Source of the DNA: Trypanosoma brucei
Taxonomy: Eukaryota
NCBI GenBank assembly: GCA_000002445.1
Contig: CP000069.1
Span: 1,472,001 to 1,536,000 of the forward strand
DNA length: 64,000 nucleotides
Direction of reading: 5' to 3'
Part shown: positions 13,501-60,160 of the stretch, piece after piece
Layout of the letters: each line of letters begins with the position of its first letter
Position numbering within the stretch: the first letter of the stretch is position 1
The notes under the pieces: generated by a model
Database searches by the model: none
The model's input: only the letters and a program-made list of their open reading frames with translations
What the model was told of the DNA's origin: nothing
Program-made: the position numbers and the translations under genes

Positions 13501-15942
13501 CTAAGGTGGTGTAGTAGTCGGGCTGGCACTGCGAATTTGGAGGCACAGATGGTACAATGAAGCACCTGCGGTCTCATCGGGACTCGTGTGCTCGATGGTA
13601 GAGGAACGATCGCCACCACTGGAGGGGGCTCCGGGGGGGATGTCCACTGCGGGTGTTGCATCGCCGTATTTGATCCTCCGGAGGGCATCAGCTCGCACAA
13701 AGCCATGTTTGTTTACCATATGCGTTACAGCACTCGAGCGGCATTGGTATGTGGCATCACATTCCGTACATTTGGTCGGTTCGGAGGTTCTTTGAAGAGT
13801 GCGTGTCGCAACAGGTGGGGCCGTTTGTATTGTTGGCCCTATCGCTGCATGTTGCGGGTTGCACCATCGGCACTGTGGAGGCACACTCGGGTTGATCTTT
13901 CGCAACATCCATCCATAGTGTCTTGAAGACCCAACCCGAAAGCGTGCCAGTGCTGTTTCTTCTTCCCTCGTCAGTTCTTCCTTATGTTTTGTTGGAAAGT
14001 GGTTGCCCGTGATACCAAACCTATGAGTGTTCTCATGGACTTCTTCCGACCTAAGCACTCGCTTCGCATAAGCAATGATGTCGGGGATCCATGTGTCTCG
14101 CAACTGTGGTAAATCTGCGGCCTTTTTGGCCATTTCATCGCAAACCTCATTCCGTTTCATGCCACAATGGCCAAACACAAATTGCAGTCGGATACACACC
14201 TTTCTTCTCTGAACTTGAAGCAGAAGCCTCCATAGTCGTCTTAGAATTGGGTCCGTTACGGCTAGGGGGCCTGTCTGCAGTGCTGTTAACATTGACAGCG
14301 AGTCAGAGAAGATGGACAACCTGCTCGGTGTGCTTCTGTATGCCGGAAGCCATTTCAGCAGCCTTTGCAGTCCTATCTCTAATGCTACGCATTCCGCTCT
14401 GTAACTGCATGAGAGTTCCCCTGCTCCTGTCTTGGGTGCGCAAATCAGCGTGTTGTTTCTGTAGAGCAGGGCAGCTGCTCCGGACTTCTCACCGAGGGAC
14501 ATGGATCCATCAGTCCACAATTCGTAGTGCTCTCGCCGCGGTGGCTCCTTCCCCCTCCGTGCAAAATGCCGTTCAATCCACTTTTCGGAAGCCTCCCTTT
14601 TGACATCGTCAGGGTCATCAGCGCACACAGGCTTTATCTGCGTGTGAAATATCGGTCGGCAGCTGTGGCGGAGCGTCGATGTCTCTAGTGGGTGCTCGCG
14701 TGGCTCAATGCGGAGGTGGGGGTAGGACCGCATGATGCGGGAATGTAGGACTCTGACTGGATGTTTGCTGTGGTATACTTCTTCAGCACTGCGCCGTAAA
14801 CATCCGCCTCGTGACTCACACATCAGCATGAATTTCATGCTGCGCACAAGAGTGGTCGTCTTGAGTGGCAGGAGGTTTGCTTCCAGCAGAGAGTCCTCTT
14901 TGCGCGTCCCATGCGGTATGCAAGCTATGATGCGACTGGCTTTGTGTTGTGCTGCTGCAAGGAGGTCGCGACTTCGTTCCGAAGTGTCCCAGTACCATAC
15001 CTCAATGCCATACATGGTGTGTGCCTGTACGAGTGCTAGATAAAAAGCTCTCAGTACTTGTCTTCTTGGCTCCCATGTAGAAGCTGAGATGGCTGCTATC
15101 TGCAGTAGTCGGAAGTCCATCTTGCGTCTCGTTTCTGCAGCATGTGTTGCCATCCCCTGCAGACACTGGAATGTTACTCCTAGAAGCTTCGGTGTCCTGT
15201 CAGCTCCTATTCTTTTGCCGTCCAGTTGTAATGTAAGGGGGTGGCGCTCTATAAACCCGAAGAGTGTGCACATTGTTTTCGCTACATTGACAGACATGAA
15301 GTACTCTTTTGACCACTGTAACACCACGGTTAGGCCGCATTGTAGTGTGTGGTTGATGACATCCCTCTCTGTGTGCCTCGCAAGTAGCGTCAGGTTGTCT
15401 GCAAAGAATCCGTGCTGCAGTAACGGCACTTCTGCAAGGCATTGGCTCAACGAGTTCATGACAATAATGAACATGATTGGACCAAGGACAGTTCCTTGTG
15501 GCACTCCTCGCTCAAATGTTCTGCTTCTGGAGAGCTTCTCCTTGAATCTCACTCTGCCAGTTCGGTTACTCAGAAATGATACGCACCACTTCACAATGTG
15601 GGGTGATACCTTCATTCTGTGCATTTCCCTCGCAATTTTGTCGTGGTCTACTGTATCAAATGCCTTCTCGTAGTCGACGAATACAGCACCCGTACGATAT
15701 TGGTGCGTGGGGCGGCAGAGGGCAGCGCGGACGTGCAGGAGTTGTTCGAGCGTTGAGCATCCGGGGCGAAAGCCTGATTGCTGCGGCGTCAGCTGGAACT
15801 CAACAGTGTCTCTAAGCCTCGTGGCAAATATGCGCTCCATGACTTTGCAGAGACAGCTCGTGAGCGTCACAGGCCTGTAAGAATCGAGGTCCTCCGCCTT
15901 TTTCCGGCCTTCAGGATGGGGATGATAACACCAGTCTTCCAT
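13501..15942 (-). CDS. ingi ORF segment: reverse transcriptase plus RNase H-like region (813 aa)
   Basis: RT motifs (..YRPVTLTSCLCKVMERI.., ..FADNLTLLA..) in a ~2.4 kb ORF adjacent to the endonuclease ORF. Confidence 0.75.
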   Translation of the reverse strand: MEDWCYHPHPEGRKKAEDLDSYRPVTLTSCLCKVMERIFATRLRDTVEFQLTPQQSGFRPGCSTLEQLLHVRAALCRPTHQYRTGAVFVDYEKAFDTVDHDKIAREMHRMKVSPHIVKWCVSFLSNRTGRVRFKEKLSRSRTFERGVPQGTVLGPIMFIIVMNSLSQCLAEVPLLQHGFFADNLTLLARHTERDVINHTLQCGLTVVLQWSKEYFMSVNVAKTMCTLFGFIERHPLTLQLDGKRIGADRTPKLLGVTFQCLQGMATHAAETRRKMDFRLLQIAAISASTWEPRRQVLRAFYLALVQAHTMYGIEVWYWDTSERSRDLLAAAQHKASRIIACIPHGTRKEDSLLEANLLPLKTTTLVRSMKFMLMCESRGGCLRRSAEEVYHSKHPVRVLHSRIMRSYPHLRIEPREHPLETSTLRHSCRPIFHTQIKPVCADDPDDVKREASEKWIERHFARRGKEPPRREHYELWTDGSMSLGEKSGAAALLYRNNTLICAPKTGAGELSCSYRAECVALEIGLQRLLKWLPAYRSTPSRLSIFSDSLSMLTALQTGPLAVTDPILRRLWRLLLQVQRRKVCIRLQFVFGHCGMKRNEVCDEMAKKAADLPQLRDTWIPDIIAYAKRVLRSEEVHENTHRFGITGNHFPTKHKEELTREEETALARFRVGSSRHYGWMLRKINPSVPPQCRWCNPQHAAIGPTIQTAPPVATRTLQRTSEPTKCTECDATYQCRSSAVTHMVNKHGFVRADALRRIKYGDATPAVDIPPGAPSSGGDRSSTIEHTSPDETAGASLYHLCLQIRSASPTTTPP

Positions 15943-17090
15943 GCAGGCGGCACGACTCCCGTTCGTAGGCTCTCATTGAATAGCCTCACAACAACATTCA
16001 GCGCTGTTCTGCCGAGATGTTGCAGTGCCTCGTTGTATAAGCAATCAGGTCCGGCTGCGGATCCACTAGGTAGCAGTTTGATCGATCTCCGTAGTTCAGC
16101 CATCGTGATGGGACTGAACTCACTCGCTATCGTCTTTATTGGTGCCGGTGGGTGTGAGTCGGGGTGCCTTCTTGCGCGGGAAGAGTACAGTTTACTGAAC
16201 CTCTCAGCTTGACGGTAGTCCGTGATGGCCGCGTTATCAACAAGTACAGCCGGTGTGGTTAGTGGTCGTGGCGCATATACCTTCTTGACAATGTGCCAAC
16301 TGCAGCGGTCTGACACCGCAAGTCTGGAGCATAGCGTGCTCCATCTCTTCTTTGTGGTACGGTCCAGGATCTGCTTACGCGTGGCTACCAACTTTTCCCT
16401 TCGGTGGGAGGGTCCGCATCCAGCGATCTCTTCATCGAGTTTCGCGAGCTCAGGTGTCCAATGTGGTGGCGTTGCTCTGCAGCCACGGGGGACGGAGACC
16501 TTCGTCGCAATGCGGATGGCGGAGCTCAATTTCTGTTCCAGGGTCTTGACGTTCTTCTCTCTACCAATTTTCCTGCAGAGCTCGTCAACCTTGAGACGGA
16601 AATTCCTCCAGTCAGCTTTTAGCCATGCGTACATGGGCTTTCGAAGCCGCGGGCAGCTCAGTGCATCTGTGTCGTCTCCAAAGATAACGTCGAAAAATAT
16701 GTGATGGTGATCGCTATCGGGAGAATACAGCGATGTCCACGTGTACACTGTGCAATTCCTTGACAGTGTCACATCAGGGGTGGACTCCCCGTGGTGGCGC
16801 GCGTACCTGGTGCACTCACCAGTGTTGCAGACCAGAAACTGGTTGTCAATGCACCACTGTGTGAGGGTTTCACCCTTGGTATTTGGTGGGCTCGCGCGAT
16901 CCCATGCCAACGCGTGTGCGTTAGCGTCTGCACCGATGAGCTGGGCACCGTCAGTCGTCAGAAGCGTATCTAGGTCAGTTGCCGTGAAGGTGTGTTTTGG
17001 TGGGATGTATGCCGACGTGACAGTCAGCGCCGTTCCACGTGCAAGGTGAATTGTTGCATGCACTTTTTCAATGCGACCAACAACGGCCAT
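15867..17090 (-). CDS. ingi ORF segment: apurinic/apyrimidinic-like endonuclease domain (407 aa)
   Basis: LINE-type endonuclease-like sequence. Overlaps the RT ORF in another frame at 15867-15942, which marks a frameshift in the ingi ORF. Confidence 0.6.
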   Translation of the reverse strand: MAVVGRIEKVHATIHLARGTALTVTSAYIPPKHTFTATDLDTLLTTDGAQLIGADANAHALAWDRASPPNTKGETLTQWCIDNQFLVCNTGECTRYARHHGESTPDVTLSRNCTVYTWTSLYSPDSDHHHIFFDVIFGDDTDALSCPRLRKPMYAWLKADWRNFRLKVDELCRKIGREKNVKTLEQKLSSAIRIATKVSVPRGCRATPPHWTPELAKLDEEIAGCGPSHRREKLVATRKQILDRTTKKRWSTLCSRLAVSDRCSWHIVKKVYAPRPLTTPAVLVDNAAITDYRQAERFSKLYSSRARRHPDSHPPAPIKTIASEFSPITMAELRRSIKLLPSGSAAGPDCLYNEALQHLGRTALNVVVRLFNESLRTGVVPPAWKTGVIIPILKAGKRRRTSILTGL

Positions 17091-18094
17091 ACCGGTCTCG
17101 ACTGGTATGTCCTCTCACTAGTATTGATACACCTCATCCTTTGCAGTTACGAGCTATTCCGTGATGTTGGTAGCCAGCAACGCTAAAGCAAGCCGCCTCT
17201 CCAGGCGTCATCCTTGTCTCGCTCAACAGACAAAAGGCGATCCGCTCATCAACAAGGGTTTTGTGGAGTGCTAATCTCTTTCCTTGAGATAGCCCGGCGC
17301 AGTTCCACTGCATCCCGTGAAACGACAGGCAGGGATTCTCTTCCACATCACCGGACAGCAGCATCTTAGTGCGGATGATATACTGCTGATGGCACGCTGG
17401 CACGTGCTCAGGGACCGACAAATGAAAAACGGTGTCCCAGCAAGACGCTGCTGATCCCTGTGCTGTATGATGCCGTAGCCGGAGCACAGCAGTGTTCCCT
17501 ATGAAAGGAACGCTGCTGGCTCTTGGCTTCCCCTGATGATACGGGGTACTGGACCCTGGCACCACGTTGAGGTGGCCGGCATCGCCAGGGTACTCACTTG
17601 ATCTCAACCCTCCGCATTTAAGTCGGCCACCATATTTCAAACTATATGTTACACCATTTCTTACGCAGCATCTATTCACTTATATTTGACATAGGAAGCA
17701 CAAACCACCCCGTATTATTTCTTTCTGTGCCGCTTTGAGCTTTTGCGTGTCCATTTGTTTCTTTCTGTATCTTCTTCCCTATTTTTGTCAACTGCATCAC
17801 TCGCTTTGAGTAACACAGAGACTCTATTTGACATGTAACAACTAATTCTGTCTCTAACCACTATATTTCTTCACCTTCTCAATGTGCATCATGGTACTCA
17901 TCACCATGTTTATGTACGAAAATGTTCGTATTCCCTATTCTTTTTCTTTTGTATCTCTTATTTTCCTTCAATAACATCAAACGTGCTCACAGTCTGTCTT
18001 ATTACTTCTTCTACTCACTCATTTACTCAAATTATGCCATTGCAATTATTTTAAACTCCTTATTTTGGGGGTTATTTCAGCTGGCAGCCCTCTT

Positions 18095-18215
18095 ATTTTA
18101 ATATTCGTATACACACTCACAACACTATCCTAGTATTATCATTATTGGCATTTCTATATTATTATTAACACTACTTCTACTATAGCCCTAACTGATAGCG
18201 ACAGAATAACGAAAT
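18095..18215 (-). repeat. 70-bp repeat
   Basis: TAATATTCGTATACACACTCACAACACTATCC..ATTATTATTAACACTAC..CCCTAACTGATAGCG. Duplicated at 50165-50290. Confidence 0.7.
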
Positions 18216-18343
18216 AATCAAAATTATTGTACTAATCATTTTTGACGCCCTTTCATCCTACTACGTTATGTCCACATGCCACTATTATACACATTTTAGT
18301 ATAAGTTTAACTATTTTTCTCACTTTTAAAAGGTTTTTAAAAA

Positions 18344-18359
18344 CTGTTAAAATATAGAA
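18344..18359 (-). promoter_or_regulatory. VSG 3' UTR 16-mer-like element (CTGTTAAAATATAGAA)
   Basis: Downstream of the VSG fragment stop at 18611. Confidence 0.4.
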
Positions 18360-18610
18360 ATTTTTGTCAATTTCTATCAAATTCTTTCAAAATATCAGCG
18401 TGTCATTGTATTTTATAAAATTCATGACGTTCGATAAAATTGAGCATATATCCTTATAGTTCTACAAAAACCCACAAAAAAGCAGTAATCAGGGCAATTT
18501 TTTTTTTTATCTAGAGGAAAACTAGTAGAGCGGTACTTGCCTTCCATCCATCCAAAAACAGCTTCTTTCTGGCGGAATGTCACCTTTTACTGGTCCTTTG
18601 GCTTCCTTAC

Positions 18611-19225
18611 TTAATGTGCACTTTTCTTCTCATCTTTTTCTTCGGGGTTCCATTTGCATGGGGGAGTGCATTCCGTCTCTTTGTCTTTCTTATTGCAATT
18701 TTTTTCGGCTTCTTCTTGTTTGGCCTCAATGCCTTGAAGTGGTGTCTGCTGCATTGTTGGTGCGAGAACTGTAGCAGCATATCGGGCAAAGGTATATGCC
18801 TGTTCTGCTTGGCTGACAAGCTGCTTCTGTTGGGCTTCTAGTAACTTGAGGTGTGCCGCTGTGCCGGTTGCGTTGTCTACCAGGTCTGCCGCCTGGTCCA
18901 GGTTAGACAGCCATGTGATTCCTTTGCCGCTTGTTGCAATGGCGTCTGTATAGTCGATACACAGTGTTGCCGCTGCTCCGGTGCTGGTGCTGCCGCTTGT
19001 TTCGCCTAGTATTAATGGTTTGTCGTAGTAAGTGTCTGTTGCCGTTGAAATATTATAGTTTGTGAGTTTTTCGATCATTTCTGTCGCTGCTGGCGCCGGT
19101 ACGTTGCTGATCCGCTTGGTCCTCGCTTTGTACAACAGGTAGATATCGCAAAGCGCCTTGAATTCTCGTATGTTGCCGTTGGTGGTTGCACCGCCTCGTT
19201 CGAATGCCATTGCCGCTAAAAACAA
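18611..19225 (-). pseudogene. VSG 3' fragment: C-terminal half of the N-domain plus C-terminal domain, no GPI signal, 5'-truncated
   Basis: ORF 204 aa ending ..CNKKDKETECTPPCKWNPEEKDEKKSAH*. An in-frame stop lies immediately upstream of the first Met, and there is no signal peptide. Confidence 0.65.
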
Positions 19226-21020: not shown

Positions 21021-22596
21021 GCTACAAACTCACAAAAAAATCCATCAGAGCCAATTTTCTATTCGCAAGGAAACTGGGATCTTCGCATTTTTCTTTAATT
21101 CATCCGCAGTTGGCTTTTTTGCCGGGTTTCTAACCATCATTCTCCTTTTCACAGTTTGCTTTGTCTTTGTGTTTTGTGCACCTGTCTGAGGGTGCTGTTG
21201 TTCCTCCCGATTGCGTTTGTGTTACAGGGACGGCGTTTTTATTAGCTTTGGTTTCATTAAATTTGCACTTTTTATCGTCGGCGCTGTCTTTTTGATAAGT
21301 ACAATAAAGGTTGGCGTTGCAGTCAGTATCTTTCGTTATTCCTTCGCATTCTTTTTTCTTGGCTTGAGTCGATTCTGCTGTCGCTTCTGCTGCCTTCGAC
21401 GCGCTTTCGTCCTTTCCGTCTGTCTGCTGAGCTGCTGCTGTCGCTTCTACTTTGTCCGCTATGTTGTACGCAATTTTTAGGTTCATTTCAATTGCTTTTT
21501 TGAGGGTTTCTTGATGTTGTTCTGCCTTCTGCTTGCGATCCAGTAGGTCGGCTGCTTGCATGACGGCTGTGGAAAATGTTAGTTCCGGCCATTTGTCGGC
21601 GTGTGCCGTTATTGTCGTACTGTACTTGACGCAGAGCCCGGTATCGCTGGCACCGTCGCAACCGCCGTTTGCTGTCCAACCTAGATAGCCGGCATTGTTA
21701 TGGATGGTGACCGCTGAATGCAGGTCCTGCAGAGCCGCCCGCAGGGCCGAGGCCGTTGCGTGGAGCGTTCCGCTTGTACTGCACTTCTGTCGCACTTTGT
21801 CGTAGGTTGCTTTGGCTCCGCTGCCTCCTGCACTCCACTTGTCCGCCCCTTGCGAATTGCGGAGTGGCTTTGGGCCGTCGTTGCCCCCTTGCTTTTCCAG
21901 CACAAGGCACATCGCCACATACGCTAGCGGGTTGTGATTTTGGATTTTGCCCTCCTGCGCGCATGCCGTGACTGTTGCGGCACCGTTGTCGGTCCCGCTA
22001 TTTGTTGCGAATTTGTCTCGGTCTTTTGTTTCGCCGTAAATGGCTTCAGCTAGTTTGTCGGCTACCGCTTTTTGTTTGCCTGCCTCTATGTCGGCCGCCT
22101 CCATTTTCAATTGATTGTTTAGTTCCAGCGTAGTGTTCAGAATTTGGTTCATTTTTGTTGCTGCTAATTTTCGCGCTCTTTCGGCAAACTTGTTGAGCTT
22201 GCTGGCCTTGATTCTCTTGGCTGCGTCGTTATTTCCTTCAAGCATGTGCCGTGCATCTGCCCAGCCCTGCCAGCTGTCTTCCCCATGTGGGAACGCCGTT
22301 TTGGCATGGTTGGGTTTTTCTTTCCACGTGAGGTTGTCTTTTCCCTTTTTTAGAAACAGCTTCTGCCATGCAGGGTCGCTTAGGCTCATATTAAGCGCCG
22401 CTAGTTCTGCCAGATCCTCTTCAGCAGTCACCTGCTGGCTGTCAGGTGCCGATCCTTTTTCCTGTAGCTGAATCAGCTTACACACCTTTGCAAATACATC
22501 CGCGTTGGCGCCTTCTGGTATCGCCAGCATCTTAGGGAAGCTCGTGGCGAGCACAACTACCGCGACTAGAGCAGATTTAACATTTTTTTTATCCAA
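21021..22596 (-). pseudogene. VSG, near-intact (488-aa ORF 21130-22596) but with two in-frame nonsense codons before the GPI-signal segment
   Basis: Signal peptide MDKKNVKSALVAVVVLATSFPKMLA and a full N-domain are present. The ORF ends ..CEKENDG*. The same frame continues KPGKKANCG*IKEKCEDPSFLANRKLALMDFFVSL*, which is a VSG-like C-terminus and GPI signal. Confidence 0.7.
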
Positions 22597-22852
22597 GTCC
22601 CCGCATCGGCTGTTGTTGTTGTTGCTTCCGATACCTTTTCCAAAATTTTGGATATTTACCTGATATAGTTGACGCTGCTATTTTGGACATGCCGTGAATC
22701 TGTTTGGTAGTTTTTTAAAATTTAAAAGCTTTGGGTCTTGCCGCCGGAGTTAGACTTAGCAATATTTTAAAAACTTTTTAGTTGTAAACAAAGCCCCTTC
22801 CATAAACCCATCACCACAATTTTTTTATATTTAAAATCCAACTTCTTTCTAC

Positions 22853-23472
22853 TTATTGAAAGAGTTTGAATTTTACCCAACTCTTAAAACTAAACTTCCT
22901 TCCTTCCAAATATCCATACCAAGTAAGATTTTTCACAATCAATTTGGCTTTTTCTTCCCATTCAATTGGCTGGTCAGCAAAATAAGTAAACGACACTTCT
23001 CTAAACTCTCTACTATTGAGAATAGAAAAGAATCTCTCCTCATAATCTAACCCAATCATTCCTCACTTCAAAACAAATCTTTGTCAAACAGCTTCTTTTT
23101 GAGTTGCACTACAAATAAGAAATGGCTTGTAAATACTCTTATCTGACTGCCATTCCTTACCTCCTTTCAATAACTCTCCAAATGCATATTAAAAAATTTT
23201 TAAGTTCTCAAACCCTAGCTATTAAACAACCACCCCTAATATACGGATTTGCCACTAGGAGGTGATTTCACCAAATGAGGTATTTTTTTATATTTCTCTT
23301 TCCTGTAACTGACATTGAAAAACCAATAACATCCCTCCACATGCCCTCTGTGATCTGAGTTCATAAGCAAATCCAACTGAGGCGCATAACACTCTGATGT
23401 TGACGTGAATAGAATATTACACAGCGGTTTCATATTTTTGACGGTAGGAAACAATAACATCAACTCATTCAC
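22853..23472 (-). pseudogene. Unidentified conserved pseudogene fragment, family copy a (paralogous to 52381-52951 and 56244-56760)
   Basis: ORFs 23236-23472 (..TSECYAPQLDLLMNSDH..CYWFFNVSYRKE..KSPPSGK) and 22853-23059 (MIGLDYEERFFSIL..NLTWYGY). Bases 23030-23150 are ~97% identical to 52381-52500. Confidence 0.4.
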
Positions 23473-24424
23473 TGTTATAACAATATCCTTATTACTTGCA
23501 TTCTGTTTTTCTAAAAATTCCGTAACTCATCTAGGCCTCTTAACATGGCTATACAAACTTCAGATCGCAACTGTAACAATTTCAAGATGAATTAGTTTGT
23601 CACTCAATATGAGTCTACACCATCCTTGAGTTGCATGAGTTTGAACTACAACAACAAACGCTCTTGGTTTCTTATGCCCATTCTCTTTCATTTTTGTTTC
23701 GTTAATTCACCATGTTGAAAAGCTATTGGGTACAAACACACCAAAGATAGCAGCAAGAGTAATAGTGAAGCTTCAAAGATACCAGGGTTCATTCCCTAAT
23801 CTACCATTAAAATTTGAAAGGATTATAAGAAAAAATATAAAATTAAGAAAAAGAGACGGTTGTGATACTACGGTGTTTTTTTAATTTGTACTGTGTTTGC
23901 ATATATGAGCAATTCCTTGATATTGTTATAATAGATGTGTTTATGATTGTATGCTTATTATCTGCGCTTTATGTTTGAGTGTGAATTCATTTTTTTAGTA
24001 GTTAGCTTCAGCCACACATAGCTCTGCACACTAAATTATTTTATCTCTTCATTGAACTCACATTTCCACTCCATGCATTGCTATAGAAATTAAGGCAGCT
24101 AGTTGTAATAGTTATTGGTTCAGAAATACTAAGATTTCTGCTGGTGGATGCGTTACCTACAACAATCATCTAATTTTATCATGCACGTTCCATCACTGTG
24201 GATACGTCAGAGGTTCCATTTTTACTGAGCCTGGACTCTGTTTCTCCCATATTGTCCTTCAATCATCTTGTTTATTATAATTCCAATATTCATATTTGTT
24301 TTTGAAACTGTGCTTTTTCCATTTCTTTCTCTTTATCTGCATTTTTTCTTTCTTGTGAAAATATTCCTGTTCCTCTTCCACTCACTCATGCTCACTTATA
24401 CTCACTCAGTTTACACCCTTTCTA

Positions 24425-24600
24425 TTGTTGTAAGTGATTTTATTTTGTATTATTATCATTATCATTAATACTTTTATGAAAATAGTAGCTTATACATACT
24501 CACAAAACCTTTTTCCAAAAATAATCATTATCATCTTTTTTCTTTACAGTTACTATTATTCCCATTAGTCTATCCTGGTATCCATAAAATAAACGGAACA
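24425..24600 (-). repeat. 70-bp repeat, strongly degenerate
   Basis: ATTATTATCATTATCATTA..CATACTCACAAAACC..ATCATTATCATC..TATCCATAAAATAAACGG. Shares the terminal ATCCATAAAATAAAC motif with the other copies. Confidence 0.45.
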
Positions 24601-24740: not shown

Positions 24741-24756
24741 GTGTTAAAATATATCA
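24741..24756 (-). promoter_or_regulatory. VSG 3' UTR 16-mer, perfect match (GTGTTAAAATATATCA is the exact reverse complement of TGATATATTTTAACAC)
   Basis: ~70 nt downstream of the VSG stop at ~24827. Confidence 0.8.
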
Positions 24757-27328: not shown

Positions 27329-27413
<85 letters not shown>

Positions 27414-27709: not shown

Positions 27710-29113
27710 CTATAAAACTGGAATCCTGACATTTTCCTTTGATCCAACCGCAGACAGACTTTTTGCCAGGGGGATCGTTCCTTTCACAGCTTCACATTCT
27801 GTATGGTTTAGAAAACTGCTGCACACAGCTTTGGCAGTATTACTCCCGTCTTTCTTTTCTTCTGATTTGTTTGTTGTATCTGTTTTGCTCTCTCCCTCGG
27901 AGTTAGCTCCTGCTGAAGTTGTCTTTGCTTTTTTTAGGTTCGTTGCATAAAAATAACCCATTGCATCGGCAAAGTTTCTTTCACTTAATTTCTGCGTGGA
28001 CCCTTTTATTTCAGGTTCACTGCTGATGGTGATCTCGTCATTTTCCAGATGCTTGATGTACAGTGTTTGAATGTCAATCTTTTTGTCTCCAAACACAACT
28101 GCTGCGACATCTTCGTTGGATAAAGAAGCGGTTGCTTTGTCCTCACTTTTGGCGGCTAATGTTTTTGAAAACGCCTTTAAAACGGGGTTGCTGAGGACTT
28201 GCGCAGTGGTTAGGCTGTTGGCGGAGTCAGCGGTTGGGATTGAGGTGGCGAAAGCCGCCTTTAATGCCGCTGCCAGGTGCGTGTCGCTGACTAGAAGCTC
28301 AATTTTGCTGGTGTGGTCTTGCTCGTGGTGTGCGCCGGTGTTTTCTTCTGCCCCTACAGTGAGGTCAATGGCGTTTGCTTTGAAGTCCGTTGCGATGGCG
28401 GCTAGGCCGCCTAGCACGCCATTGACGTGCTGTGCCGTGGTTTGAACTGAGTCGGAGTTGTTGTGGCATCCTGGTGCATTGCTGTAACCGCCTGCGTTCG
28501 ATTTTGAGGCGTTGCCGTTTCCTTTTGCTGTTATGCGTGTGTCGGTTGTTAATATCTTCAGGCTGTCTGCCTGCCTTATGAGTATTTTGTCCAACGTTCC
28601 AGCCCTTTTTGCTTCGGTGATGGCTTCCGCTTTGCCTTGGGCGTTGTTTTGGCAGTTTAGTCCTGCTGTTATCTGAAGTTTGTCCGTGACTTTGCAGTGT
28701 TTGGCTTTTCCGCAGATGAACAGTGTATTGCCCCCGCTCGATTCCAACGCCCCTGTGCCGGTTAGCGCCGGTGCAGTTACTGATGAAAGCGCTATACTGT
28801 AGGTGTGCCAGACCCAGCGCTGTGACAGCTTTTGTATTTCCTCCGCCTGCTCTTTTGCGAAAGTAAGTGTTCGGCTCGCTAGTTGGTTGGCTTCTTGTGT
28901 TGCCGCAGCTAGCAACGCCTCATATGCCTTTTCTTGTGGGTTTCCCTTGCATCGGGTTGCTGCTAACTGAAAAAGCTTAACGTTGGCGTTGTTTTGGACA
29001 TTGGCTGGCTCCGCCTGCGGTGCTCGCTCCTTGAGATCCGTGATCAGCTGCGGTGTGTACCATGTTTCTGTGCAAAAGTCTTTGACTTTTCTGGGGTTAA
29101 AAGCGCTCTGCAC
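27710..29113 (-). pseudogene. VSG-like 467-aa ORF lacking both the N-terminal signal peptide and the C-terminal GPI signal
   Basis: VSG N-domain-like composition. The in-frame sequence upstream of the Met has a stop. The C-terminus ends ..GSKENVRIPVL* and the frame continues to degenerate sequence. Confidence 0.55.
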
Positions 29114-50681: not shown

Positions 50682-51907
50682 TTAATGTGCACTTTTCTTC
50701 TCATTATTTGATTCGGCGTTCCACTTGCATGGCGGTTTACAATCTGTTTCCTTGTCTAACTTATTGCACTCTGCTTCTTTGGAGTCGATTGTTTCTTGGG
50801 TTTGGCGCTTGGGATGTTTGATAGTTTCTGCTCCATGTGCTACGGTTATGGTGGCTATGTCCAGAGTGTCGCATAACTGCCACGCTTGAACCTCTGCTGC
50901 TTTCAGTTGGGCATGCATTTTGGCTAGCTCGGTTCTTATGGTATATGCCTTTTTGAGTTCTTTCGTTGCTTGGAGCATGTTTTCGACCCATTTTACTTTG
51001 TGGAATGTTCCTGTTCCCACTGCAGCCATGTAATCAACACAAGTGGCTGAGATGGTGCCACCTAGGCCGTGCCGCCCGCTGTTGTCGTTGTCTGTGAAGG
51101 CTTTGTTGACGAGTGAGGATTCTACTTGGGTTACCGCCGCCATGAGTAGCTCTAGCGTGACAGTTTTTGCGTCGGTGGTGGGCTTAAATTTTGTTACAAT
51201 GGCCTTATACGCGCTGACTCCAGCGGCCGCGTCGCTTCCTGTTCCATAGTTGGCTCTGTTCTCGCCTTCTACGCAGATTCCGTTGCTTGTGCTTGCCGTG
51301 CCGCAAACACATGCAAGCGCTTTGGCTAGATTTTGCGCCGCCGGTTTTACCCTGCCGCCGCTGTTGCATGCGTTGTCTCCGGTGTCGAAAGTCTGTTCGG
51401 CTGCTGTGTTAGCCGCCGCGTCGCCGAAAACCGCTGCTTTTCATAATTTTTTGGCATTTTATTTTAAGTTTTGAAACTCCTTTTGTTGGCCGGCTGCTTG
51501 CTCTGCTGTAACCGCCGTTGAGTTGTACAGCCTTTCTAAAGCAGTGTGTGCTGCCCGCTTCCCTGGGCTTTCCGGAGGCCTTTTGTAAATTTCCGATTTG
51601 TCACTGTTCGTTTCGGTTTTTATTGTATCTTTGATTGCTGTAAATTCTGTGTCGGTTGTGAAGATGCCAAAAGTTTTATTATTGTAGTGTTCGTCTGGTA
51701 TTGTTGCCGCGTACAGTGCCCTCACAGCTGTCGGTACCTCGCCATTCGCATCCTGGGTATTGAATTCCGCCGCGTCGATGCTGCCTGTTGCTGCCTGATA
51801 TGCTGCACAAAGAGCTTCGTACTGTTACGCATTTTCTCGCTTCGAGTGTGACACTGAAGTCAAAGCTGCTAGTGCGGTTAGTAGACTTGCTATTAGTGGC
51901 CGCATTG
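50682..51907 (-). pseudogene. VSG pseudogene. Signal peptide is followed by an in-frame stop; frameshifts; C-terminus KKSAH* with no GPI signal.
   Basis: Minus frame from 51907: MRPLIASLLTALAALTSVSHSKRENA*. ORFs 51459-51725 and 50682-51143 end ..CNKLDKETDCKPPCKWNAESNNEKKSAH*. Confidence 0.65.
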
Positions 51908-52380
51908 CCTATAAGTTAGTAAATTTATGGTTTTGTTTATGTTGAAATGCGTAACGTTTTGTGCAATTATAGTGGCTTGTGAGTAAGTTTGAATGTCACA
52001 GAAACCTTATCGGTTTGTGGGGTACTTTAAGACTTTAAGGCTAAAACATTAATTTTAATTAGAAATTACCGTGGAAGGTGAAGTTTCGTGATCAAACATC
52101 TTTGAAGTACCTTCGGAATCACATTTTATAAGTCTTAAACAAATACCCTTCTTTAAAAGCGTAAATACAAATTTTGTCATACGTGAAATTAAATTTTTTT
52201 CAACCTCTCGTATAAGCTCAAATTTTTCTTAACTCTATCGTACTAAATTTCCTCCTTTTAAAACACGCGTAAAAACTAAGATTTTTTACAATTAACTTCG
52301 TTTTCTCCTCTCATGCAATAGTGTACCATTGAAAAAATAAATGGCGCCTTTCAAATTTCATCACTATGCTGAATAGAAAA

Positions 52381-52951
52381 GAGTCTCTCCTCATAATCTA
52401 ATCCAATCATTCCTCACTTCAAAACAAATCTTTGTCAAACAGCTTCTTTTTGAGTTGCACTACAAATAAGAAATGGCTTGTAAATACTCTTATCTGACTG
52501 CCATTCCTCACTTCCCTTTAGTAACTCTCCAAAAGCATATTCAAATTTTCTTAAACTCCCATACTCTGGCTATTAAACCGCCAACACTAAGATACGGTTT
52601 TCCACTAGGAGGTGATTTTAGTAAATGGGGTAATTTTTTATCCTCTTCTTTTCTGTAGCCCACATTGAAAAACCAGTAACATCTCTGCATATGCTCCTTG
52701 TGATCTGAGTTCATAATCAGATTCAACTGAGGAGCATAACACTCTGATGTTGTCATGAACATAATAGGGGAAATATGCTTCTCTTTTACTATATCTTCTT
52801 CACCAAATCTATCTTCATTATCAGCGCTATTTTGTACAAAATATTCCACAGCATTTTTATACTTATTTCCATCACTAACAATAACAGCAGATCCATTTAC
52901 AGTTATTACAATATCCTCATCACCTGCATTATGCATTTCCAAAAATTCCAT
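52381..52951 (-). pseudogene. Unidentified conserved pseudogene fragment, family copy b
   Basis: ORF 52541-52951: ..DEDIVITVNGSAVIV..TSECYAPQLNLIMNSDHKEHMQRCYWFFNVGYRKEEDKKLPHLLKSPPSGKPYLSVGGLIARVWEFKKI. Bases 52381-52500 are ~97% identical to 23030-23150. Confidence 0.4.
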
Positions 52952-54032
52952 AACTCATCTAGGCCTCTTAACATGACTATACAAACCTTCCATAGCAATT
53001 GTAATAATTTTAACATGGCTTATTTAGTACTTAATATTAGCCTGCACCATCCTTTAGTTGCATGAGTTTGAACCACAAAAACAAACACTCTGGAATTCTT
53101 AGGCTTTTCATCTGTAATATTTACTTCTTTATAATGTTTAATATATGTTGAGCTTAAACACGCAAAATGTAATAGTAGTGATAATAATAAAATCGAAAGT
53201 TACTACATTTTATTCCCTAACCTATATTTAAAATTTTGAAAGAGATATAATAAAAAATTTAAAAAAGAGTAAGTTTCATCACTAAGCTTTTTGGTTAATG
53301 AAAACGTGTTTACGTGTATGAGTAAGTAATGCCTTGATATTGTGATTATATAGCTTCTGAAATGTGCCTATTTAGTGCATTAATTTAATCTTTTGGCGTG
53401 CATTAAAGATTCCTGTTTTTAGTAGTTAGCCGCGGCAACATACAGTGCAGTTCTTCCATGCACAGTCCTTCTCTATGAATTTATCTGGTAATTACAAGTA
53501 GCAGGCTGAACTGATAGGGACAGAAATAATAATAATTTTACAACCCTTCTGCGCAACTCCTCTCAACCATCTAATTTAGGCATTATCCTCTAACCAACAT
53601 GGATTTATGAGCCACCGATACTCGATTCTACAATTTTCTTCGTTGTGGCACATATTCATTTTTGTGCCAAATGTGCAGCACAATCACATCTTCTGCCGTT
53701 TACTTTGTGCCAAACTCGTGAGCATTTCGTTGCAAAACTCTCTCTTTTATTTACTTTTTTACGTTCTGTTGCTACTCCTGCGAATTACGTTGATAATTCA
53801 TTTTGCCTGCTCACGGAACTCTGATTATCGCCTACTTTTGGCTTCATCACGTTCCTTTGTATAATCATGAACATAAACATATTTCTGTTTGAAACTGTAT
53901 ATTCCACAACCCTTTCTTCCTTTTTTATTTTTCTCTTACAAACTTTCTCACTTAATAAGTTACTTCCATTGCACCTTTGCAATTATTTAGGTGCTTCCAT
54001 TCTTCCTCTTCATATATTATTCACCAGCAATC

Positions 54033-54130
54033 TTATTATAATACTCGTATATGCACACTCACAACACTCCTCCATCATTATTATTATCATTATCATTATA
54101 AACGTAACTAATATGTATAAAATAAAGAAT
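54033..54130 (-). repeat. 70-bp repeat
   Basis: CTTATTATAATACTCGTATATGCACACTCACAACACTCC..ATTATTATTATCATTATCATTATAAACGTAACTAATATGTATAAAATAAAG. Confidence 0.7.
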
Positions 54131-54268
54131 ATAGTCTGAATTATAATATCTCTCATTTTTCATATCCTAAAACTCTACTACTTTACTCTCATAAGCCACT
54201 CTTACACAATTTTTTTATATTTTTTATTTTTTCAAAAATTTCAAAAATATTTATACTTTTATTAAAAA

Positions 54269-54315: not shown

Positions 54316-55878
54316 TTATCTTAAAATAGCAAAGTTTGATAAATTTATTAAATTTCTTAAAAGTGAGAAAAAATCTTTAAAATCTTTAGAGTAGTAAAAT
54401 ACAACCAAACCCCTAAAAGAAGCAGCTATTAGATCCAATTCTTTATTGATAAGAAAGCTGGAATCCTTGCAAGTTTCACCTTCCCACTTGCATCCATCTT
54501 TGCAGTCCTCCTGCTTTTTCTTTTCGGAGTACTTTTTACCTTCTGTATTTGTTCCTACAGCTGCTCCTGTTCCTGCTGTGTTTGTCCGTGCTTCTCCCGC
54601 CTTAGCTTCGCACTTTCCATTGCTTTCCTCTCCTGTCCATTTGCACACTGCTTTGTCACTGTGTGGGCTTGGAAGCTGCCCGCCTGTCTTACTGCTGACG
54701 TTGCCCAGTGGTTCTTCCTCCGTTAGTTGCGTATAAATCGCTTCTGCTTTGGCATCTATTTCTGCCAGTCATTGGACCGCCTGTGTGCGCAGTTTCATGG
54801 CGTCCTCAGCTTGTTCGAGGATTGTTGCTGCTTCCTCGATTTCACTTATCTATGTGTTGGCGGTTATCTTACTCGGTGCTTTGGAAGCCAATAAGTCGGT
54901 GGAATCAAGACAGCCAGCTCCATCGCTTGTTGCACAGTTAGCGCCGTTGCTATTGGGTTCCCCCAGTACGGCAGCGACGCTCGTGCTCCCGGTGTGGGTG
55001 TGTGTTTTGATCCGTGAAAGTACAGTTGTTAAGGCCTGTCGTAAGTTTACTGCTGTTAGGCTTCGTGACTTTGCTTGGAGGCACTTTTGGTGTATGCTTT
55101 CATAGGCTGTTGCCATAATGACTGCGTTCCAGTCCGCTATCGTGCCCGTCGTAGCATTCTCACATGTGTCTTTGGTTTGTGCGCCTTCCTTGGCGCACAG
55201 GAAGACGGCCGCACTGCACACCGTGGAAGGTTGCGCCGTGATTTTGCAAGTCGCCTCCCGGCTTGTAGCCGCGGCCCCTTTACAAGCGTCTGCTGCGTTT
55301 GTGTGCTTTGTTTGTTTTCCGAACAAGGCTCCATTGGGCTTGGTAGCCAGTTCTGACCACGGTTTTTGCAGGTTCTTGTGCGGTCCTGTGTTGTAGTCTG
55401 AGACTACTTTTGTTGCTTCGGCTATTAGGGCTGTTATTTGCATTCGTGCTGCCTTGCCTACCGGACCGTCGCTGATTCCCGCTGGTAAGAGCTTGTTCCC
55501 TGGCATCTCGTCTGCTTTCGAAGCTGCAATAGCTGCGCTTTCCCATTTGGTCCATTGCTGCTTGCAATTTGGCTCCCAATCAAGGGCTTTGCAGAACTCT
55601 GGATCGTTGTTTCGTTTGCTTGCGTCTGTTATGAATTTGTTCCGCCAGCTGGTGAGGCTCAGTGACATGTTGATCTTGTCAAAGTTTCCTGGCATCGTCA
55701 GTTCTGAAGATGCTGGATCGACGCCGGTTGTGCTCTCCAATCCTGTTGATATGAGCTGGCAGATCGCATCGAGGTCTGCGAGGTTGATGACGTGGTCTTC
55801 AGTCGCACTTACCTTTTGCATTAGCGCCACATTGAGCAGTGCTGCATATAGTAGTAGAGCTTTTGTTTCAGGCTTCAT
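54316..55878 (-). pseudogene. VSG pseudogene: one reading frame throughout but two in-frame stops (54650-54850) and an aberrant, over-extended C-terminal tail
   Basis: ORF 54850-55878 gives signal MKPETKALLLYAALLNVALMQKVSA and an N-domain. The frame continues ..KITANT*ISEIEEAATILEQAEDAMKLRTQAVQ*LAEID.. into ORF 54316-54648, reading ..DCKDGCKWEGETCKDSSFLINKELDLIAASFRGLVVFYY... Confidence 0.65.
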
Positions 55879-56243
55879 GTAGCCTATTTGCTGACTATCT
55901 GAAAGAATAAAGAAACTTCTTTTTTTCCAGAGCTTTTGAAACTGTATCGCTTTTAATTAGTTATACCGCTTGTGCGTCATCTCTTTCTTCTTTTTGGCCG
56001 TTATTCAGCTGATCCATAGGAAATGCTTTTCGGTCGTTCACAGTGTTTGGTGGTGCATGGTGTTATCCCAACTCCTTGCGTTATGCACCTTCCAGTCTAC
56101 AACGTTTTAAATTTAAACAAATCATCCTTTTTAAACGGATTCCCACAAATATACTCATACTTAACAGGTAATTTCTCCACGGATACTGCATAAGTTTGCA
56201 GATTCCCAAGAGTGTGATTCGTATTAAATTTCTTTCCTACCCA

Positions 56244-56760
56244 CTATTTATACCAAGTGAGATTTAATAGGATCTTTCTAGTCTTTTCCTTCCAGGATAA
56301 CGCACGTCCTTGAAAGTGAAGGAACGCAGCTTTTCTGAAGGAAGTTTCGTAATGGACTGAGAAAAACTGATCGTCGTAATCTAATCCAATCAACTCTCTT
56401 GGTAAAACTAATCTACCGCTTACTTTTGCTTCCCGTTTCACACTCCACAATAGCAACGGAATATAAATACTCTGTTCTGACCACCATTTCTTCCCGTCTT
56501 CTAATAACTCTCCAAATACATATTCAAATTTTCTTAATTCCCACACTCTTGCTATCAAACCATCACCACTAAGATAAGTTTTTCCACTAGGAGGTGATTT
56601 TACTAAATGAGGAAAGTTTTTATCCTCTTCTTTTCTGTGCCCAACATTAAAAACATAATATCATCTCTCCATATGCTTCTTGTGATGTGAGTTCATAATC
56701 AGATTCAACTAAAGTGCATAACATTGTGGAGTTGACACGAATAGAATTAAATAAATTTTT
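56244..56760 (-). pseudogene. Unidentified conserved pseudogene fragment, family copy c (longest; single frame with 2 stops)
   Basis: Minus frame: ..CYAL*LNLIMNSHHKKHMER*YYVFNVGHRKEEDKNFPHLVKSPPSGKTYLSGDGLIARVWELRKFEYVFGELLEDGKKWWSEQSIYIPLLLWSVKREAKVSGRLVLPRELIGLDYDDQFFSVHYETSFRKAAFLHFQGRALSWKEKTRKILLNLTWYK*. Confidence 0.4.
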
Positions 56761-58049
56761 TGTCCCTTTACAATATTCTCTTCATTTTCTGCATAATTTT
56801 GTATAAAATATTCCACGGTATTTTAATATTTTTTCCATCAGAAATAATAACATCAGATCCAAAAAAAGCTATTATAATATCCTCATCACTTGCATTTTGT
56901 ATTTCTAAAATTCCATAACCCATCTAGGACTTTTAACATGACTATACAAACCTCCTATTGTAATTGTTATAATTTAAACATTGCTTAGTTTGTTACCTAA
57001 TAATATTCTACACCATCCTTTAGTTGCATGAGTTTGAACTACAACTACAAACATTCTTGCCTCCTTAGGATTATTATATGTTGTGTTTTTTGTTGTTTAT
57101 ATTATTACCCTGAAGAGATACAGCTCTTCAAAACACTAAATGTAATATAAAATGTAGCAGTAAAGTTGTTAATTTACCGATTTTTTCCACTTAACTGTAG
57201 AAATTTGAACGAGAGAAAAGCAAGAATTTTAGAAACCTTAAGAAAATAATTTAGTTACATCACTACCTTAATTATAAAAAAGGGTTTACGCATATAGTAA
57301 GTAATCACTTGATATTTTTGTAATACAGCTGCCAAAGGGTGCACACTTAATGTCTGCAGCTTATCTTTTAGCATGCATTTACCCTTTTTGTTCTAGAAAT
57401 TAGATTATAATACACCTGTGACTGTACACCGCGTGGACATTGTCTGTAAGTTTATCCACATTTCTTCGCCATCCATTTCTATATAAATGTTTCAACTGAA
57501 TATACCGATAGGTTCAGATATACTAAGAGTTTTGCTAGTTTTCTTTGCCAACTAACTAAGCCCGAAGGTTTCGTCATGAGAAGAACATCAGCGTTTCTTC
57601 ATGAACTTTTGCTACCATTTTCGTTACTAATATCTTTGATATAGCATCTACACATTTTTGTATCAAATACGGAGCGTCAAATACTTCAGATGTATCACTT
57701 TCTTCAGTACGTTTCTGCAGCTATTGCCTTTGTTTCTTTCTGCTCTCCATTCCGTCCCTTTCGTTCTCTACCATTTTTTCATGGCAATGTAGCGACTCCT
57801 TTAGTCATGTATATTAGACTCTGTCTCTTCTTAATAATCTTCTCATCATTTTCTTCTGTGAAATGATTACCGTATTCACGTCTCGTCATGAGACTATACA
57901 TATTTTATCTCTCTTTCTTTGATTTTCTGCATCCCTTCTATAATTATCATCTTACAAACTCTTCAACTCCCTCTTTACTACGGTTTCTTTTCCACTATTT
58001 TAAGGTCTCCTACTACTCTTGTGCATTTAGTCTTCAATACAATTTACAT

Positions 58050-58130
58050 TACAATATTATTATACACACACAGCACCATCATAAAAAACATCTCTATTAT
58101 ACCCCTAACTAATATACATAAAATAAACAA
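58050..58130 (-). repeat. 70-bp repeat, degenerate
   Basis: ACAATATTATTATACACACACAGCACC..TATTATACCCCTAACTAATATACATAAAATAAAC. Confidence 0.55.
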
Positions 58131-58348
58131 AATGAAACAAATTAGAAGCATTTTATAATAGTTGTTTTTTCACAACCCACCACCCTACTACTTTACTCCC
58201 ATGTTACACTTTCTTACCAATATTTATTATTCACAAAATTTGCATATTTTTATTAAAAAGTTTTTAGAATATGTCAAACTTTATAAAATTCTTAGAAAAT
58301 TATCAAATATCATAAATTTCATGAAAGTGAGCAAAAATCCTAAAAGTT

Positions 58349-60126: not shown

Positions 60127-60160
<34 letters not shown>
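60127..60160. repeat. (AC)17 dinucleotide microsatellite
   Basis: Perfect ACACAC... run of 34 bp. Confidence 0.9.

What the first reader, a model, noticed from the sequence alone, without database searches (positions are those of the whole stretch)
22853..23472. Three-copy unidentified pseudogene family, always between a 70-bp repeat and the downstream VSG
Copies at 22853-23472, 52381-52951 and 56244-56760 share motifs (DEDIVI.., SECYAPQL.LIMNSDH, CYWFFNVGYRKEE, KSPPSGK, ARVWE(F/L)(K/R)KFEYVFGELL, LIGLDYDDQFFS, NLTWY) and up to ~97% nucleotide identity over >100 bp. All carry stops or frameshifts. I cannot place the family from memory. Candidates are the ESAG-like or other subtelomeric pseudogene families known in VSG arrays. 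The consistent position just upstream of a VSG suggests it travels with VSG cassettes.
Basis: seen in the sequence. Interest (0 to 1): 0.6.

Follow-up and report, generated by a model that had tools for sequence, protein, structure and literature searches.

The report
Dead ESAG3 genes beside VSGs
The three repeated "unidentified" sequences are decayed copies of ESAG3, a well-known Trypanosoma brucei gene family whose dead copies are already known to litter the silent surface-antigen (VSG) gene arrays, so the finding is real but ordinary.

Summary
The window has exactly three homologous copies, all coding on the minus strand. Each lies between a degenerate 70-bp-type repeat and a VSG (pseudo)gene, and each is broken by stops and frameshifts.

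The family is ESAG3 (expression site-associated gene 3, Fam53) of Trypanosoma brucei. A composite translation hits the bloodstream expression site (BES) ESAG3 cluster at E=8e-99.
- A: 22774-23792
- B: 52122-53190
- C: 56100-57184

They carry 5-7 stops and 3-7 frameshifts each. They are 55-70% identical to BES ESAG3 but only 21-31% identical to the core-genome GRESAG3 relatives. The catalytic Asp110 is lost in all three.

ESAG3 was recently reported in a 2026 preprint to be a GT-A VSG O-glucosyltransferase. My own model and fold search agree with that fold.

ESAG3 pseudogenes in VSG arrays, and ESAG3 pseudogenes 3' of the 70-bp repeats in BES7 and BES15, are already published.

The adjacent VSGs are unrelated to one another, so pseudogene and VSG do not share a duplication history. 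A 106-bp perfect tract between A and B indicates gene conversion between copies.

Verdict: already known, low interest.

The parts
22774..23792 (-). ESAG3 pseudogene, copy A. Aligns to ESAG3 aa 1-367 with 5 stops, 7 frameshifts and a 26-aa internal deletion around aa 127-152.
   Evidence: tblastn, frameshift-aware alignment, 59-60% aa identity to BES ESAG3.
23793..23933 (-). 5' flank of copy A, homologous to the 5' flank of copy B.
   Evidence: blastn 23413-23933 = 52840-53350.
52122..53190 (-). ESAG3 pseudogene, copy B. Aligns to ESAG3 aa 9-368 with 7 stops and 3 frameshifts.
   Evidence: 67-70% aa identity to BES ESAG3. A composite translation hit the ESAG3 cluster at E=8e-99.
53191..53404 (-). 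5' flank of copy B, homologous to the 5' flanks of copies A and C.
   Evidence: blastn 52388-53404 = 56371-57379.
56100..57184 (-). ESAG3 pseudogene, copy C. Aligns to ESAG3 aa 2-368 with 6 stops and 3 frameshifts.
   Evidence: 55-57% aa identity to BES ESAG3.
57185..57379 (-). 5' flank of copy C, homologous to the 5' flank of copy B.
23020..23160 (-). Near-identical tract shared with copy B (52371-52511): 141 bp with 3 mismatches, including 106 bp with none. The surrounding identity is about 75-85%. Inferred gene-conversion tract. It contains the shared stops at aa 263 and aa 270.
52371..52511 (-). Partner in copy B of the near-identical tract at 23020-23160.
21130..22596 (-). B-type VSG ORF (488 aa, no plausible ATG ahead of its signal peptide), 178 bp downstream of copy A.
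   Evidence: Pfam VSG_B E=1.4e-59 and Trypan_glycop_C. Translation.
50682..52000 (-). Frameshifted B-type VSG pseudogene downstream of copy B. The upper boundary is approximate.
   Evidence: Pfam VSG_B on 50682-51143. VSG-like ORF fragments up to about 51725.
54850..55878 (-). B-type VSG ORF (342 aa, truncated), 222 bp downstream of copy C.
   Evidence: Pfam VSG_B E=8e-31.
24440..24560 (-). Single degenerate 70-bp-type repeat upstream of copy A. The core matches GTGTTGTGAGTGTG with 2 mismatches at 24495-24508.
54018..54160 (-). 70-bp-type repeat upstream of copy B, with an exact core at 54054-54067.
58094..58200 (-). Very degenerate 70-bp-type remnant upstream of copy C.
   Evidence: blastn matches to other repeat loci. 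Sequence read.
24741..24756 (-). Conserved VSG 3'-UTR 16-mer (TGATATATTTTAACAC, exact) of the next VSG upstream. It marks the cassette boundary.

Best explanation
The three elements are non-functional relics (pseudogenes) of ESAG3, in the ESAG3 sensu stricto lineage of family Fam53, lying in a silent subtelomeric VSG array of Trypanosoma brucei.

The intact parent gene encodes a Mn2+-dependent GT-A-fold O-glucosyltransferase that modifies VSG. That function comes from a 2026 preprint, not from this work. These copies cannot make the enzyme. [quoted passage not shown]

Each relic occupies the interval between the 70-bp-type repeat and the VSG of one cassette. The copies continue to exchange sequence with each other by gene conversion (inferred from a 106-bp perfect tract). 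Because they sit inside the unit bounded by the 70-bp repeat, a 70-bp-initiated gene conversion would carry them into an expression site along with the VSG. This step is inferred, but it fits the published ESAG3 pseudogenes 3' of the 70-bp repeats in BES7 and BES15.

They have no protein function. Any role would be as passive homology for recombination.
For: Identity:
- A composite translation of copy B hits one protein cluster at E=8e-99 and 79% identity. The members of that cluster are named ESAG3 from T. brucei BESs.
- tblastn with ESAG3 finds exactly three loci, with E from 1e-87 to 1e-99.
- A frameshift-aware alignment covers aa 1/2/9 to 367/368 of the 368-aa protein.

Lineage:
- The conceptual translations are 55-70% identical (395-492 bits) to the full-length BES ESAG3 proteins, against 21-31% (at most 162 bits) to the next full-length relatives.
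- Those relatives are core-chromosome 'ESAG3-like' genes of T. brucei and orthologues in T. vivax and T. conorhini.

Decay:
- D110 is N, N and F in A, B and C. W242, E244 and Q245 are lost in A and B. H297 is substituted in A and not aligned in B.
- The preprint reports D110N and W242A as catalytically dead.
- A and B share stops at aa 90, 263 and 270.

Fold of the parent: an AF2 model has pLDDT 80.8. Its best PDB matches are the LH3/PLOD3 glucosyltransferase domain, 6wfv and 6fxr, at E about 5e-9, as the preprint states.

Context: 70-bp cores, VSG 3' 16-mers, Pfam VSG domains and ingi elements show a VSG array.

Literature:
- ESAG3 'is also in VSG arrays' (PMC3607257).
- 'ESAG3 psi 3' of 70-bp repeat' in BES7 and BES15 (PMC2567434).

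The same arrangement occurs at independent loci in T. b. gambiense and T. b. equiperdum.
Against: Nothing argues against the identification.

Against the co-transfer step, the three neighbouring VSGs are not detectably related, and homology ends at the ESAG3 stop codon. There is therefore no direct trace of pseudogene and VSG moving together in this window.

Codon-position differences between A and B are not uniform (0.26, 0.15 and 0.31 at positions 1, 2 and 3). That is not what purely neutral divergence predicts. It may reflect divergence before inactivation, patchy conversion from intact copies, or bias from aligning on the protein.

Pfam has no model for this family, so the family assignment rests on sequence similarity and on names given by databases.
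Confidence: 0.96

Rival explanations
1. The relics are retained because they act as DNA. They would be an extra block of upstream homology to the ESAG3 copies in expression sites and other cassettes. That homology could align or prime recombination and so influence which array VSGs are copied, or how often.
For: Published analysis noted that recombination breakpoints in BESs coincide with ESAG3 loci and proposed a role in orienting expression sites (PMC2567434). A 106-bp perfect tract between A and B, in a background of about 80% identity, shows that these copies do recombine. The position just 5' of a VSG recurs at independent loci in two other subspecies.
Against: Only 3 of about 16 cassettes in the window carry the element. 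The copies are 20-35% diverged at the nucleotide level, which is poor substrate for homologous recombination outside short patches. No selection on the DNA sequence is evident, and the copies carry deletions and truncations (L002). Recurrent position is equally well explained by descent from an ancestral ESAG3-VSG arrangement.
Confidence: 0.12
2. The copies belong to the older GRESAG3 lineage of Fam53, or to another glycosyltransferase family such as GT67, rather than to ESAG3 proper.
For: The family has divergent relatives at 31-35% identity to ESAG3. The motifs resemble generic GT-A features (DxxD and a glycine-rich loop).
Against: The copies are 55-70% identical to BES ESAG3 against 21-31% to the GRESAG3-type proteins. 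There is no Pfam hit to Galactosyl_T or any other glycosyltransferase model.
Confidence: 0.01
3. The copies are intact, expressed ESAG3 genes, and the apparent defects are sequencing or assembly errors.
For: None beyond the general difficulty of assembling subtelomeres.
Against: Each copy has 9-12 disabling lesions, catalytic residues are substituted, and copy A has a 26-aa deletion. Three stops are shared by A and B at homologous codons, so they are inherited or converted rather than random errors.
Confidence: 0.01
4. The similarity is only local duplication of non-coding co-transposed sequence with no gene origin.
For: The elements lie in the non-coding interval upstream of VSGs.
Against: There is full-length protein-level homology to ESAG3 at E about 1e-140. 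Relatives also exist in other T. brucei subspecies at other loci.
Confidence: 0.01

Closest known systems
ESAG3 (expression site-associated gene 3) of Trypanosoma brucei bloodstream expression sites, e.g. UniProt Q26748 and B3GVE4 (Fam53, ESAG3 sensu stricto)
   Same: Collinear homology over the full 368 aa at 55-70% identity. Conserved blocks are shared (VVVQTHAT.GWCR, SECYAPQL, KSPPSGK, GLDYEE). Both are physically associated with VSG genes.
   Different: The window copies are dead: 5-7 stops and 3-7 frameshifts each, with D110 lost. They lie in a silent array between the 70-bp repeat and the VSG. The usual BES positions for ESAG3 are upstream of the 70-bp repeats.
ESAG3 pseudogenes 3' of the 70-bp repeats in Lister 427 BES7 and BES15 (Hertz-Fowler et al. 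2008, PMC2567434)
   Same: The same kind of relic in the same relative position, between the 70-bp repeats and the VSG.
   Different: Those are in telomeric expression sites, while these are in an internal silent array. I could not compare the sequences because no BES DNA was available.
Array or subtelomeric ESAG3 relics in T. b. gambiense DAL972 (FN554968.1; 187-aa ORF C9ZQ13) and T. b. equiperdum (CM010678.1; 95-aa ORF A0A3L6L846)
   Same: Decayed ESAG3 about 170-250 bp upstream of a VSG (pseudo)gene. In the gambiense locus a 70-bp core lies about 1 kb upstream.
   Different: They are different loci, only 70-81% identical to the window copies at the nucleotide level. The equiperdum copy is 5'-truncated and directly follows another VSG pseudogene, with no 70-bp core detected in between.
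GRESAG3 / 'ESAG3-like' core-genome genes (e.g. Q38A25, Q38A26, Q38CS1) and orthologues in other trypanosomes
   Same: The same family (Fam53), with the same predicted GT-A fold and conserved DGxD, GG and Q245 positions.
   Different: Only 21-31% identical to the window copies. They are intact and lie on chromosome cores.
Human LH3/PLOD3 glucosyltransferase domain (PDB 6fxr, 6wfv)
   Same: Closest solved fold to the ESAG3 parent protein: a GT-A fold with a Mn2+-binding DxxD motif (preprint).
   Different: Sequence identity is 14-16%. This bears only on the ancestral enzyme, not on the dead copies.

Membership tests
ESAG3 (Fam53, ESAG3 sensu stricto), as pseudogenes | Significant, collinear, near full-length sequence homology to BES-encoded ESAG3 | tested here: met
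   E=8e-99 to the ESAG3 cluster. tblastn E from 1e-87 to 1e-99. The alignments span aa 1/2/9 to 367/368.
ESAG3 (Fam53, ESAG3 sensu stricto), as pseudogenes | Closer to ESAG3 proper than to the GRESAG3 lineage | tested here: met
   55-70% identity and 395-492 bits to full-length BES ESAG3, against 21-31% and at most 162 bits to core-genome ESAG3-like proteins. No phylogenetic tree was built.
ESAG3 (Fam53, ESAG3 sensu stricto), as pseudogenes | Location in a T. brucei VSG expression site or subtelomeric VSG array | tested here: met
   70-bp cores, VSG 3' 16-mers, Pfam VSG_A and VSG_B ORFs and ingi elements across the window. The strain and chromosome were not identified.
Functional ESAG3 O-glucosyltransferase | Uninterrupted ORF of about 368 aa | tested here: not met
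   5-7 stops and 3-7 frameshifts per copy.
Functional ESAG3 O-glucosyltransferase | Catalytic residues D110/D113 (DxxD), W242, E244/Q245 and H297 (preprint 10.64898/2026.01.27.701950) | tested here: not met
   D110 is N, N and F in A, B and C. D113 is A in B. W242, E244 and Q245 are Q, D and K in A and B. H297 is Y in A and not aligned in B. C keeps all except D110 and G215.
GT-A fold glycosyltransferases (parent protein) | Rossmann-like GT-A fold similar to known UDP-sugar transferases | tested here: met
   AF2 model of Q26748 from a 16-sequence alignment, pLDDT 80.8. Foldseek top hits are the LH3/PLOD3 GT domain at E about 5e-9, probability 1.00. The single-sequence model failed.
GT67 / Galactosyl_T, RHS or other Pfam-defined subtelomeric families | Match to the family's Pfam model | tested here: not met
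   No Pfam family at E<=1, apart from a meaningless TetM_leader hit.
VSG cassette 'co-transposed' sequence | Lies between the 70-bp repeat and the VSG | tested here: met
VSG cassette 'co-transposed' sequence | Is actually copied with the VSG during gene conversion | not testable with these tools
   Only indirect support: BES7 and BES15 carry ESAG3 pseudogenes 3' of the 70-bp repeats. Within the window, the flanking VSGs are unrelated.

The most novel reading that the evidence does not exclude
ESAG3 relics just upstream of a subset of array VSGs are not inert. Four of the five loci examined here precede B-type VSGs. As blocks of homology to the ESAG3 copies in expression sites, they could offer an alternative upstream crossover point. 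That could bias the activation order or the conversion-tract length of the linked VSGs. Alternatively, they could mark cassettes that were once telomeric ESAG3-VSG units, which would tie the O-glucosyltransferase gene historically to particular VSG lineages.
Probability: 0.08. Interest if true: 0.45.

Novelty: already known. Interest (0 to 1): 0.12.

Why it matters
It matters little beyond correct annotation.

There is some topical relevance, because a 2026 preprint identifies ESAG3 as the enzyme that O-glucosylates VSG. The many dead copies beside silent VSGs are a fossil record of a long physical association between the enzyme gene and its substrate genes.

A genome-wide survey could be a modest follow-up. 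It would ask where these relics sit relative to the 70-bp repeats and VSG types, and whether they are carried into expression sites during switching. Nothing here is surprising to a specialist.

Tried and rejected
- Pfam scan of the three conceptual translations gave no family. Pfam has no ESAG3 model, and the precomputed Pfam field for Q26748 is also empty.
- My first guess from the motifs was a GT31/GT67-type galactosyltransferase. It is rejected as a family assignment, although the GT-A fold part proved right.
- A PDB sequence search with ESAG3 found nothing, so the cryo-EM structure is not in that copy.
- The single-sequence AlphaFold model was useless, with pLDDT 33. The alignment-based model worked.
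- I tested whether pseudogene and VSG were duplicated as one unit. They were not: the flanking VSGs give no tblastn hit to each other at E<=1e-3, and the nucleotide homology ends at the ESAG3 stop codon.
- I tested whether copies A and B belong to the recent 4.9-kb, 98.9% segmental duplication. They do not: that duplication is 13823-18697 = 45894-50768 and contains an ingi element.
- I tried to identify the source record through exact look-up of two intact VSG ORFs. Neither is on record.
- Marcello & Barry 2007 (PMC1950903) is not held. No held paper pairs 'ESAG3' with 'co-transposed region'.
- The association with B-type VSGs is suggestive (all 3 here plus L002) but not exclusive. Five other B-type VSGs in the window lack the element.

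Full report
**1. Observation**

- A: 22785-23933
- B: 52136-53404
- C: about 56225/56371-57379

Pairwise identity is 72-80% and E values go down to 1e-154. No other place in the 64 kb matches. The window as a whole is transcribed from the minus strand, and its long ORFs lie on that strand.

**2. Identity**

Pfam found nothing in the conceptual translations. A 221-aa composite of copy B was searched against the 5.8-billion-protein collection. It hit a single cluster at E=7.9e-99 with 79% identity over 91% of the query. The 15 members of that cluster are ESAG3 proteins from T. brucei bloodstream expression sites, such as B3GVE4 and B3GVD5, together with T. b. gambiense ESAG3.

tblastn of the 368-aa representative (Q26748) against the window finds exactly three loci. 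Each is split over three reading frames, with E from 1e-87 to 1e-99.

I wrote a frameshift-aware protein-to-DNA alignment. It shows that each locus is a near full-length ESAG3 relic:

| Copy | Window (minus strand) | ESAG3 aa | Stops | Frameshifts | Other |
|---|---|---|---|---|---|
| A | 22774-23792 | 1-367 | 5 | 7 | 26-aa internal deletion |
| B | 52122-53190 | 9-368 | 7 | 3 | none |
| C | 56100-57184 | 2-368 | 6 | 3 | none |

A further 140-215 bp upstream of the start codon is also homologous among the copies.

**3. Which branch of the family**

An exhaustive HMMER search with Q26748 against 1.84 billion cluster representatives found only 46 relatives. The next full-length ones are 31-35% identical. 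By their source names these are the core-chromosome 'ESAG3-like / ESAG protein, putative' genes of T. brucei TREU927 and DAL972 (Q38A25, Q38A26, Q38CS1) and orthologues in T. vivax and T. conorhini. This is the GRESAG3 lineage described in PMC6152948.

The three conceptual translations are 55-70% identical (395-492 bits) to the full-length BES ESAG3 proteins. They are only 21-31% identical (at most 162 bits) to those relatives. They therefore belong to ESAG3 sensu stricto.

**4. What the parent gene does, and the state of the relics**

A 2026 bioRxiv preprint (10.64898/2026.01.27.701950) reports that ESAG3 is a Mn2+-dependent, UDP-glucose-specific O-glucosyltransferase that modifies VSG3. It has a GT-A fold closest to human LH3/PLOD3 and assembles as an 18-mer ring. 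The catalytic residues named are D110/D113 (DxxD), G215-G216, W242, E244/Q245 and H297. D110N and W242A are inactive.

I checked the fold independently. A single-sequence AlphaFold model failed, with pLDDT 33. A model from a 16-sequence family alignment reached pLDDT 80.8 and pTM 0.80. Its best PDB matches are the LH3/PLOD3 glucosyltransferase domain (6wfv, 6fxr and others) at E about 5e-9 and probability 1.00. D110, G111, D113, G215 and Q245 are nearly invariant across the family.

In the window copies:
- D110 is N in A, N in B and F in C.
- D113 is A in B.
- W242, E244 and Q245 are Q, D and K in both A and B.
- H297 is Y in A and not aligned in B.

Together with the stops and frameshifts, this means none of the three can encode an active enzyme.

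**5. History of the copies**

A and B share stop codons at ESAG3 positions 90, 263 and 270. C shares none of them.

Sliding-window identity is uneven. A and B are 75-88% identical over most of the gene but 97-100% identical around A 23040-23190. The longest perfect run is 106 bp (23052-23157 = 52403-52508), and 141 bp carry only 3 mismatches. In the same stretch C is only 55-68% identical to either. This is therefore a recent gene-conversion tract within the A/B lineage rather than a conserved segment. Two of the three shared stops lie inside it.

Codon-position differences between A and B are 0.26, 0.15 and 0.31 at positions 1, 2 and 3. This is not the flat profile of purely neutral decay. 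Likely causes are divergence before inactivation, mosaic conversion, or bias from aligning on the protein. I did not resolve which.

**6. Context**

The window is a typical T. brucei silent VSG array read from the minus strand:
- The 70-bp-repeat core (GTGTTGTGAGTGTG) occurs at 17 sites with up to 2 mismatches, against 0.5 expected by chance.
- The VSG 3'-UTR 16-mer occurs at 9 sites against 0.06 expected.
- Pfam recognises A-type and B-type VSG domains in many minus-strand ORFs.
- Two ORFs that Pfam misses look like VSGs.
- Two ingi-type retroelements (RVT_1 plus RNase_H) lie within a 4.9-kb duplication at 98.9% identity. That duplication does not include the ESAG3 relics.

For each relic the order on the minus strand is:
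1. The 3' 16-mer region of the upstream VSG (for copy C only a degenerate match).
2. A 70-bp-type repeat.
3. A spacer of 0.5-0.7 kb.
4. The ESAG3 5' flank and the pseudogene.
5. About 180-220 bp of spacer for A and C. The start of the decayed VSG below B is not defined.
6. The VSG.

This is shown. The repeats are single and degenerate, and the one upstream of C barely qualifies. About 16 VSG (pseudo)genes are present, and only three carry the relic.

All three linked VSGs are B-type. They are not detectably similar to each other. The nucleotide homology between relics ends at the ESAG3 stop codon. The relic and the VSG next to it therefore have separate duplication histories.

**7. Other loci**

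Short ORFs from ESAG3 relics in other genomes let me fetch two independent loci.

T. b. gambiense DAL972 (FN554968.1, locus L001):
- A 70-bp core at 8499.
- The ESAG3 relic at 9501-10552.
- A VSG-like pseudogene from 10797.
- The next 70-bp core at 12578.

T. b. equiperdum (CM010678.1, locus L002):
- A VSG pseudogene at 8356-9723.
- A 5'-truncated relic (aa 74-368) at 9989-10784, directly after that pseudogene.
- A B-type VSG ending at a perfect 16-mer at 12578.

A position immediately 5' of a VSG is thus recurrent. The 70-bp repeat upstream is usual but not universal.

**8. Comparison with what is known**

[quoted passage not shown] - PMC4766357 notes that pseudogenic ESAG copies are prevalent in VSG arrays.
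- Hertz-Fowler et al. 2008 list 'ESAG3 psi 3' of 70-bp repeat' for BES7 and ESAG3 pseudogenes among the extra sequences of BES15. They also suggest that ESAG3 loci coincide with recombination breakpoints.

The family, its decay in arrays and even this relative position have therefore been reported already. From my own memory, which I did not check here, genome annotations of T. brucei label many such loci 'ESAG3, pseudogene'.

**9. Mechanism and verdict**

Shown here: three dead ESAG3 copies, their extents, their lesions, their placement, sequence exchange between two of them, and the GT-A fold of the parent protein.

Inferred: because they lie within the interval bounded by the 70-bp repeat, they would be copied into an expression site along with the VSG. 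They may also act as passive homology for recombination.

I give 0.96 to the ESAG3-pseudogene identification. I give about 0.1 to any functional role as DNA.

The result is an ordinary, already described feature of T. brucei VSG arrays.

Noticed in passing
window 13823-18697 and 45894-50768: A 4,875-bp segmental duplication at 98.9% identity. It contains an ingi-type non-LTR retroelement (ORF 13501-15942 with RVT_1 and RNase_H) plus about 1 kb of flank, including a 70-bp core (18112 / 50183). It is far younger than the ESAG3 relic copies and does not include them. 221-bp repeats at 12119-12339, 17382-17602 and 49453-49673 are about 96% identical.
   Followed up: partly
window 21130-22596, 50682-51143, 54850-55878; L002 11123-12067: Every VSG directly downstream of an ESAG3 relic in the window is B-type (Pfam VSG_B), as is the one in the T. 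b. equiperdum locus. Five other B-type VSGs in the window lack the relic, and the gambiense locus looks A-type-like. The bias is suggestive only.
   Followed up: partly
window 27710-29113 and 37044-38621 (minus strand): Two long ORFs (467 and 525 aa) get no Pfam VSG hit. 37044-38621 ends in a typical VSG C-terminal domain and GPI signal (…SNSFVINKAPILLEFLAL). They are probably divergent A-type VSGs that the Pfam models miss.
   Followed up: partly
window 21130-22596 (minus strand): This 488-aa B-type VSG ORF is open through both domains. It has no ATG ahead of its signal-peptide-like N-terminus, and the first in-frame Met is at residue 23. It may be a start-codon-less pseudogene despite the intact frame.
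   Followed up: no
window 27329-27411; 36637-36702; 60127-60165: A perfect (TAT)27 run and an imperfect (TAT)n run, which are the TAA/TTA-rich parts of 70-bp repeats on the opposite strand. There is also an (AC)19 microsatellite.
   Followed up: no
L002 18402-20288 vs window 12339-14225: The T. b. equiperdum locus carries an ingi element 95.5% identical to the one in the window. This is the only megablast-level similarity between that locus and the window, apart from the ESAG3 relic at 81%.
   Followed up: no
L001 531-1601 and 18661-19635: The T. b. gambiense locus holding an ESAG3 relic also carries an ISG65/75-family gene and an ESAG1-family gene within 10 kb. It is therefore a mixed subtelomeric region rather than a pure VSG array.
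   Followed up: no
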